A stretch of DNA of 64,000 nucleotides from positions 42,752,001 to 42,816,000 of the forward strand of contig CP068257.2 of NCBI GenBank assembly GCA_009914755.4. The letters are read 5' to 3'. The DNA is from the human T2T-CHM13v2.0 reference genome, Homo sapiens. The notes beneath the pieces are model-generated. The model saw only the letters and a list, made by a program, of their open reading frames with translations. It searched no databases and was not told the DNA's origin. Positions 7,191 to 7,346 of this stretch are shown in pieces (the first letter of the stretch is position 1; the number at the start of each line of letters is the position of its first letter). Position numbers and translations under genes: made by a program.

Positions 7191-7227
7191 AACCTGTCTG
7201 CCTTCCTACCGCCCCTCTTCCCAGTAG

Positions 7228-7346
7228 CTCTTCTATGACCCTGACGAGTGCGGGCTGATGAAGAAGGCAGCCTTGTACTTCAGTGACTTCTGGAATAAGC
7301 TGGACGTCGGCGCAATCTTGCTCTTCGTGGCAGGGCTGACCTGCAG
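7228..7346 (+). CDS. TRPM2: TRPM2 exon 17 (LFYDPDECGLMKKAALYFSDFWNKLDVGAILLFVAGLTC-R; S3)
   Basis: Tandem acceptor 'cccagTAG|ctc' with the distal AG used. Donor 'gtgagt' at 7347. 119 nt. Confidence 0.88.

What the first reader, a model, noticed from the sequence alone, without database searches (positions are those of the whole stretch)
7221..7230. CAGTAG tandem (NAGNAG) acceptor at exon 17: in-frame TAG if the proximal AG is used (TRPM2-S mechanism)
The exon 17 acceptor reads 'cttcccagTAG|ctcttc'. Exon 16 ends in phase 0 after ...EEMRQ. Using the upstream AG (7223-7224) instead of the distal AG (7226-7227) inserts TAG directly after Q. That truncates the protein after S2. This matches the published description of the dominant-negative short isoform TRPM2-S, a stop codon at the exon 16/17 junction (from memory). 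The sequence shows the structural basis directly.
Basis: partly seen in the sequence, partly recalled or inferred. Interest (0 to 1): 0.55.

Follow-up and report, generated by a model that had tools for sequence, protein, structure and literature searches.

The report
TRPM2 exon 17 stop-inserting tandem acceptor
Intron 16 of the human TRPM2 ion-channel gene ends in two splice acceptors three bases apart, and using the first one puts a TAG stop codon straight after exon 16, which is the sequence basis of the short TRPM2-S isoform published in 2003, so the finding is correct but not new.

Summary
The window is human TRPM2, exons 14-32. Exon 16 (3767-3983) ends in phase 0 after ...EEMRQ (Q846). 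Intron 16 ends cccAG(7223-7224)TAG(7225-7227), and exon 17 starts at 7228 (L847). Splicing at the proximal AG gives ...CGG CAG|TAG CTC, a stop directly after Q846.

[quoted passage not shown] No other event in this sequence puts a TAG there. [quoted passage not shown]

New here:
- The tandem is also present in a New World monkey and in a rodent-like genomic contig.
- It is absent from three other mammal-like loci and two sauropsid-like loci.
- A fully spliced RNA-derived contig from a non-human mammal carries ...CGGCAG TAG CTATTC, the proximal-AG product. Another carries the canonical junction.

Not shown: how often the proximal AG is used in human tissues, and whether that mRNA escapes NMD. 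It has 15 exon junctions downstream of the stop.

Verdict: already known mechanism, interpretation supported, low to moderate interest.

The parts
3767..3983 (+). TRPM2 exon 16 (217 nt). It encodes residues 775(part)-846, covering S1 and S2, and ends in phase 0 with ...GAG GAG ATG CGG CAG (EEMRQ, Q846).
   Evidence: Q846 on S2:
3984..3989 (+). Donor of intron 16 (gtacag). Read-through would continue 31 codons to a TAG at 4077-4079.
6713..7174 (+). Minisatellite in intron 16 (21-nt unit TGACAGTGATAGTGATGATAG, higher-order 90/180 nt). It ends about 50 nt before the acceptor. It is AG-rich, so it bounds the AG-free zone.
7186..7190 (+). Best candidate branch site, gUGAc (A7189), just downstream of the last upstream AG (7185-7186). 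It lies 35 and 38 nt from the two acceptor Gs. A weaker candidate is ccuAc (A7208). Inferred, not mapped.
   Evidence: inference from the yUnAy consensus
7193..7221 (+). CU-rich polypyrimidine tract (18 of the 20 bases before the CAG are pyrimidines). It includes C7221 at the -4 position of the tandem.
   Evidence: features linked to distal use in PMC3250501
7222..7224 (+). Proximal acceptor CAG. Splicing after G7224 makes the TRPM2-S type mRNA.
7225..7227 (+). Distal acceptor TAG. It is intronic in full-length TRPM2-L mRNA, and it is the in-frame stop codon after Q846 when the proximal AG is used.
   Evidence: literature
7228..7346 (+). TRPM2 exon 17 (119 nt), residues L847-R886(part), the S2-S3 linker and S3 with the Ca2+ ligands N869 and D872. 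Donor gtgagt at 7347.

Best explanation
This is a YAGYAG (CAGTAG) tandem 3' splice site at the end of the phase-0 intron 16 of human TRPM2. After the branch site is chosen, the spliceosome can ligate exon 16 to either AG. The distal AG (7226-7227) gives ...CGG CAG|CTC TTC... and the full-length 1503-aa channel (TRPM2-L). The proximal AG (7223-7224) keeps the three bases TAG in the mRNA, so translation stops after Q846 at the end of helix S2. The product is the N-terminal cytosolic domains plus S1-S2. It lacks S3-S6, the pore, the TRP helix and the NUDT9-H domain, and it retains only half of the Ca2+ site (E843 and Q846, but not N869, D872 or E1073). This is the published TRPM2-S, reported to bind TRPM2-L and suppress its Ca2+ influx. 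The same mRNA has 15 exon junctions downstream of the stop, so it is also a predicted NMD substrate. The net effect of proximal-AG use is therefore less functional channel, by loss of productive mRNA, by a dominant-negative subunit, or both. Shown here: the anatomy, the reading frame, the identity of the gene and the exons, presence of the tandem in a tamarin and a rodent-like genome, and use of the proximal AG in a non-human transcript contig. Taken from the literature: the existence and dominant-negative action of TRPM2-S. Inferred: the branch site, NMD sensitivity and the usage ratio.
For: Sequence and frame. Gene identity and numbering (L847 is the first residue of exon 17 in the 1503-aa human TRPM2). 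[quoted passage not shown] Cross-species: Saguinus oedipus genome has cttcccagtag|CTCTTC, and the rodent-like genomic contig L011 has ctcctcagtag|CTCTTC. Logan contig L001 (SRR22936487) aligns exon by exon to window exons 14-21 without introns and reads CGGCAG TAG CTATTCTAC, with three extra bases exactly at the junction. Contig L017 from a related species has the canonical CGACAG|CTCTTC. Both -3 bases are pyrimidines, and the -4 base is C with a CU-rich tract, features of tandems in which the distal site is used substantially (PMC3250501).
Against: No human RNA data could be examined, so proximal-AG use in human rests on the secondary literature. The 2003 primary paper was not readable. The literature gives 845 residues, while the sequence gives 846. 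The mRNA is a textbook NMD candidate, which sits uneasily with a stable short protein. No open-access paper in the library mentions TRPM2-S together with nonsense-mediated decay or NAGNAG together with TRPM2, so neither point has been addressed there. The species of the Logan contigs are unknown. An assembled contig says nothing quantitative about isoform ratios.
Confidence: 0.85

Rival explanations
1. The mechanism is the same, but the output is mostly unproductive splicing. Proximal-AG transcripts are splicing noise or a down-tuning device and are cleared by NMD. The TRPM2-S protein is then a minor or overexpression-driven entity with no major physiological role as a regulator.
For: The stop lies 122 nt before the next junction and 15 junctions before the end. 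[quoted passage not shown] Most functional work cited in the reviews uses overexpressed TRPM2-S. RNA-seq 'could not well distinguish' the variants (PMC9404563).
Against: [quoted passage not shown] The TAG-containing mRNA was abundant enough to be assembled as the contig path in a non-human RNA sample. The tandem is retained in primate and rodent-like genomes although tandem sites are in general selected against.
Confidence: 0.4
2. TRPM2-S arises from a different event, such as intron-16 retention or intronic polyadenylation, and the CAGTAG is a coincidence.
For: Prokaryote-style ORF calls on genomic contigs read from exon 16 into the intron (for example P0007 and P0009). This shows the frame stays open for a while.
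Against: Read-through adds 31 residues and stops at 4077-4079, far from the exon 17 junction. [quoted passage not shown] The orthologous transcript L001 shows exactly the 3-nt insertion in an otherwise fully spliced mRNA.
Confidence: 0.04
3. The proximal AG is essentially never used in human, and the original clone was a rare mis-splice or cloning artefact.
For: Both searches of the protein collection returned no human multi-exon ORFs at all.
Against: The proximal site has the favoured -3 C and a better pyrimidine tract (18/20 against 16/20). Proximal sites are generally preferred in tandems. The same site is used in another mammal.
Confidence: 0.05

Closest known systems
TRPM2-S, short isoform of human TRPM2 (Zhang et al. 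2003, as cited in PMC5942353 and PMC13001073)
   Same: Same gene and same junction (exons 16/17), same stop codon (TAG), same product (N terminus plus two transmembrane helices, about 845 aa).
   Different: Nothing substantive. The sequence gives 846 residues rather than 845. The reviews read here do not call the site a NAGNAG/tandem acceptor or discuss NMD.
[quoted passage not shown] 2008, PMC2279118; Bradley et al. 2012, PMC3250501)
   Same: The intron ends in YAGYAG, both -3 bases are pyrimidines, the intron is in phase 0 and the distal NAG is TAG. The result is direct insertion of a stop rather than of one amino acid.
   Different: Most NAGNAGs add or remove one residue. Only 35 introns of this stop-inserting kind were counted in that data set, and they were excluded from the analysis as NMD targets. 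Here the truncated product has a reported function of its own.
Unproductive splicing coupled to NMD (AS-NMD, 'poison' splice sites)
   Same: An alternative splice-site choice introduces a premature stop far upstream of the last exon junction. The tandem is retained in the primate and rodent-like genomes sampled.
   Different: NMD sensitivity and any autoregulation were not tested. Classical cases use poison exons with highly conserved flanks, whereas here only the hexamer is shared between primate and rodent-like introns.

Membership tests
NAGNAG tandem acceptor | The intron ends in NAGNAG directly abutting the annotated exon | tested here: met
   CAGTAG at 7222-7227 and exon 17 from 7228
NAGNAG tandem acceptor | Both -3 bases are non-G ('plausible' HAGHAG/YAGYAG) | tested here: met
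   C7222 and T7225; the rule is from PMC3250501
NAGNAG tandem acceptor | Transcripts exist for both the proximal and the distal junction | tested here: inconclusive
   In non-human mammals both were seen: L001 with TAG retained and L017 canonical. For human there is only literature plus the canonical protein. No human reads were available.
Stop-inserting tandem site / AS-NMD | Phase-0 intron and distal NAG = TAG, so the inserted triplet is an in-frame stop | tested here: met
   the class is named in PMC2279118
Stop-inserting tandem site / AS-NMD | [quoted passage not shown] | tested here: met
   15 downstream junctions, the first 122 nt after the start of the TAG
Stop-inserting tandem site / AS-NMD | The isoform is stabilised when NMD is blocked | not testable with these tools
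   Needs RNA-seq or RT-PCR after UPF1/SMG1 depletion or cycloheximide
TRPM2-S isoform | TAG stop codon at the exon 16/17 splice junction | tested here: met
   The proximal-AG join gives Q846-TAG; the description is in PMC5942353
TRPM2-S isoform | About 845 residues, N terminus plus first two transmembrane helices, no pore | tested here: met
   846 residues computed. Q846 is on S2 and N869/D872 on S3. The literature says 845, a difference of one residue.
TRPM2-S isoform | Binds TRPM2-L and inhibits Ca2+ influx (dominant negative) | not testable with these tools
   Literature only

The most novel reading that the evidence does not exclude
The CAGTAG tandem may be a maintained regulatory switch that arose in the common ancestor of primates and rodents. 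Sauropsid-like loci read cccaaTAG or cccaaCAG, and three other mammal-like loci have a single CAG. On this reading a substantial and possibly regulated fraction of TRPM2 pre-mRNA is diverted to the stop-containing form, setting channel dose both by NMD and by a dominant-negative subunit. Consistent with this, the proximal site looks intrinsically at least as strong as the distal one. In one non-human RNA sample the TAG form was the assembled path. No paper in the searchable library discusses NMD or tandem-site regulation for TRPM2-S. In human, the AG-rich minisatellite that ends about 50 nt upstream could constrain branch-site choice and so the ratio.
Probability: 0.2. Interest if true: 0.5.

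Novelty: already known. Interest (0 to 1): 0.25.

Why it matters
TRPM2 couples oxidative stress to Ca2+ entry and cell death, and TRPM2-S is widely used as a dominant-negative tool and proposed as a therapeutic handle. Three practical points follow from the short form differing from the long form by only three nucleotides at a tandem acceptor.

- Standard RNA-seq or qPCR cannot separate the two forms unless the 3-nt offset is counted explicitly. One paper says as much.
- A single base change at the proximal AG would remove TRPM2-S without touching TRPM2-L. That is the clean genetic test the field appears to lack.
- The mRNA should be NMD-sensitive, so the amount of short protein needs direct verification.

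The apparent restriction of the tandem to primate and rodent-like genomes also bears on which animal models can have an endogenous short form.

Tried and rejected
- The 2003 primary paper and a 2014 JBC paper are not held. One literature search was wasted on a poorly chosen term.
- Two searches of the protein collection returned almost only short ORF fragments from genomic contigs and no human multi-exon transcripts. Human use of the proximal AG therefore could not be tested this way.
- The Monodelphis 'TRPM2-like' locus L003 has only a lone exon-16 copy and no exon 17.
- Contigs L009, L010, L012-L016 and L021 end before exon 17.
- The metagenome scan gave a single sauropsid-like locus.
- RNA folding around the acceptor (7165-7265) is no more stable than shuffles (z = 0.10). 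A structure that hides one AG is therefore not supported.
- Intron-16 retention as the source of TRPM2-S was rejected.
- No MaxEnt-type splice-site scoring was possible offline. Only qualitative rules from PMC3250501 were applied.
- The species of the Logan and ENA contigs could not be determined. 'Rodent-like', 'laurasiatherian-like' and 'sauropsid-like' are my labels, based on sequence similarity and recollection.

Full report
**What is there**

The window is the 3' two-thirds of human TRPM2. Translating the exon after the flagged site gives LFYDPDECGLMKKAALYFSDFWNKLDVGAILLFVAGLTCR. This is 100% identical to residues 847-886 of the 1503-residue human TRPM2 in PDB 6mix. Exons 14 and 15 match residues 685-774. 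A chain of 17 exons with canonical AG/GT borders, from 3767 to the stop at 50288, reproduces residues 775-1503 exactly.

**Check of the observation**

- Positions 7221-7230 read CCAGTAGCTC, with AG at 7223-7224 and again at 7226-7227.
- Exon 16 (3767-3983) ends ...GAG GAG ATG CGG CAG followed by gtacag, so the intron is in phase 0 after Q846.
- Exon 17 starts at 7228 and ends at 7346 (gtgagt follows).
- Joining exon 16 to the base after the proximal AG translates as ...SLVCEEMRQ*, with LFYDPDEC continuing in frame after the stop.

The hexamer CAGTAG alone is unremarkable, with 6 and 11 copies on the two strands of the window. What matters is that it sits at a true phase-0 acceptor. It is the only tandem among the 17 acceptors of the window.

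**What it is**

It is a YAGYAG tandem 3' splice site whose distal triplet is a stop codon.

- Upstream lies a CU-rich pyrimidine tract (7193-7221). Eighteen of the 20 bases before the CAG are pyrimidines, against 16 of 20 before the TAG.
- The last AG before the tandem is at 7185-7186. It lies just downstream of an AG-rich minisatellite (6713-7174, 21-nt unit, 90/180-nt higher order).
- The AG-free zone is therefore only 36 nt, and the branch point should lie in it. The best match to yUnAy is gUGAc with A7189, and a weaker one is ccuAc with A7208. This is inference, not mapping.
- By the -3 base (C against T), tract quality and the general preference for the proximal site, the proximal AG should be at least as good as the distal one (PMC3250501).
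- The same paper links substantial distal use to a pyrimidine at -4 (here C7221), CU/UC-rich tracts and a branch point closer to the 3' splice site. The first two features are present here.
- RNA folding of 7165-7265 shows nothing beyond shuffled controls (z = 0.10).

**Consequences for the protein and the mRNA**

The Ca2+ site of human TRPM2 is formed by E843 and Q846 on S2, N869 and D872 on S3, and E1073 (PMC6759353 and PMC10412822). The stop after Q846 therefore cuts exactly at the end of S2. It keeps the N-terminal domains, S1 and S2, and removes S3-S6, the pore, the TRP helix and NUDT9-H.

The stop-containing mRNA has 15 exon junctions downstream of the stop. Under the 50-55-nt rule it is a predicted NMD substrate. 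This step is inferred.

**Comparison with the literature**

- Review PMC5942353, citing Zhang et al. [quoted passage not shown] It acts as a dominant negative on Ca2+ influx and co-precipitates with the long form. The review mislabels it TRPM2-AS in that sentence.
- PMC13001073 gives 845 residues and two transmembrane segments. The sequence gives 846, a one-residue discrepancy I could not resolve because the primary paper is not held.
- Hiller et al. 2008 (PMC2279118) name exactly this configuration. [quoted passage not shown]

Both the isoform and the class of site are therefore known.

In the searchable open-access library no paper contains both NAGNAG and TRPM2, and none contains both TRPM2-S and nonsense-mediated. 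One TRPM2-S paper remarks that RNA-seq 'could not well distinguish' the variants. That is what a 3-nt difference would predict.

**Alternatives**

Read-through of the exon 16 donor stays open for 31 codons and stops at 4077-4079. This would give a longer protein with a stop nowhere near exon 17, so intron retention does not fit the published description. No other TAG can be placed 'at the junction'.

**Related sequences**

Contigs carrying exon 16 were retrieved from the protein collection, and the exon 17 acceptor was read where the contig reached it.

| Source | Acceptor | Type |
|---|---|---|
| Saguinus oedipus (annotated NCBI genome, L002) | cttcccagtag\|CTCTTC | tandem, as in human |
| Rodent-like genomic contig (L011) | ctcctcagtag\|CTCTTC | tandem |
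| Other mammal-like loci, exon 16 ending EELRQ (L004/L005) | ctctctcag\|CTCTTC | single CAG |
| Same group (L006-L008) | cccctccag\|CTCTTC | single CAG |
| Same group (L018) | ctctcacag\|CTCCTC | single CAG |
| Sauropsid-like (L019/L020) | ttttcccaatag\|CTCTTG | single |
| Sauropsid-like (L022) | ttcccaacag\|CTGTTG | single |

The species of all Logan, ENA and JGI contigs are unknown. The group labels are mine, from similarity and recollection. With that caveat, the pattern suggests a tandem present in primates and rodents and absent elsewhere. The sauropsid cccaAtag differs from the human cccaGtag by one base, but homology of intron positions at that distance is uncertain.

**Transcript evidence**

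Logan contig L001 (SRR22936487, 1643 nt) is 82-88% identical to the human exons at the DNA level. It aligns to window exons 14-21 block by block with no intron sequence, so it derives from spliced RNA. At the exon 16/17 junction it reads GAG ACA CGG CAG TAG CTA TTC TAC GAC. The three extra bases correspond to window 7225-7227, and the frame otherwise runs open on both sides. This is the proximal-AG product in another mammal.

Contig L017 (SRR31578571), from a related species, has the canonical CGA CAG|CTC TTC junction.

An assembled contig gives no ratio. It does show that the stop-containing mRNA can be abundant enough to be assembled.

**Mechanism and confidence**

I put 0.85 on the statement that TRPM2-S is made by use of the proximal AG of this tandem and TRPM2-L by use of the distal AG. 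How much proximal product is made in human cells, whether it is regulated, and whether it mainly yields protein or is degraded all remain open. I give 0.4 to the view that it is chiefly unproductive splicing cleared by NMD.

**Novelty and score**

The mechanism is already known, and the finding is a correct re-derivation from raw sequence. The modest additions are the cross-species presence and absence of the tandem, a non-human transcript carrying the stop, and the point that NMD and tandem-site quantification appear not to have been considered for TRPM2-S in the searchable literature. Interest 0.25.

Noticed in passing
window 9220-12208 (intron 19): About 3 kb of (CCTC)n, roughly 760 copies at 86% match. 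The + strand is almost pure pyrimidine: GC skew -0.999 and AT skew -1.0 over 10001-12000. This is a very long strand-asymmetric tract inside the gene, of a kind that can form triplex (H-DNA) structures.
   Followed up: partly
window 5544-6519 and 6713-7174 (intron 16): There is a degenerate (CACACACATG)n array, then a 21-nt/90-nt/180-nt minisatellite (TGACAGTGATAGTGATGATAG) ending about 50 nt upstream of the exon 17 acceptor. Its units carry many AG and UGAC motifs. The tamarin intron ends in a similar sequence (L002, upstream of 14483).
   Followed up: partly
window 35481-35582 (exon 27): This 102-nt exon encodes residues 1292-1325. That is exactly the segment reported missing in the TRPM2-deltaC variant, so deltaC is simple skipping of exon 27.
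   Followed up: partly
L003 10079-10297 (Monodelphis domestica, GCA_027887165.1): The locus annotated 'TRPM2-like' contains only an exon-16-like piece, with no exon 17-32 within 79 kb. It lies among genes with SEA, C1 and kinase domains. It looks like a stray exon copy rather than the orthologue.
   Followed up: partly
L017 1-949 (Logan SRR31578571): This is a partly processed transcript. Introns 16, 17 and 18 are removed, while sequence of intron 15 (5' end) and intron 19 (3' end) is still present. This hints that intron 16 is removed early relative to its neighbours in that species.
   Followed up: no
L002 10001-20549 (Saguinus oedipus annotation): The deposited annotation breaks TRPM2 into several separate genes. 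One model runs from exon 16 into intron 16 (P0007), and another starts about 1 kb upstream of exon 17.
   Followed up: no
literature against window 3981-3983: Reviews give TRPM2-S as 845 residues. The genomic sequence with the 1503-residue numbering gives 846, with Q846 as the last residue.
   Followed up: partly
window 8333-8475 (intron 18): A 66-nt unit is repeated 2.1 times at 94% identity.
   Followed up: no
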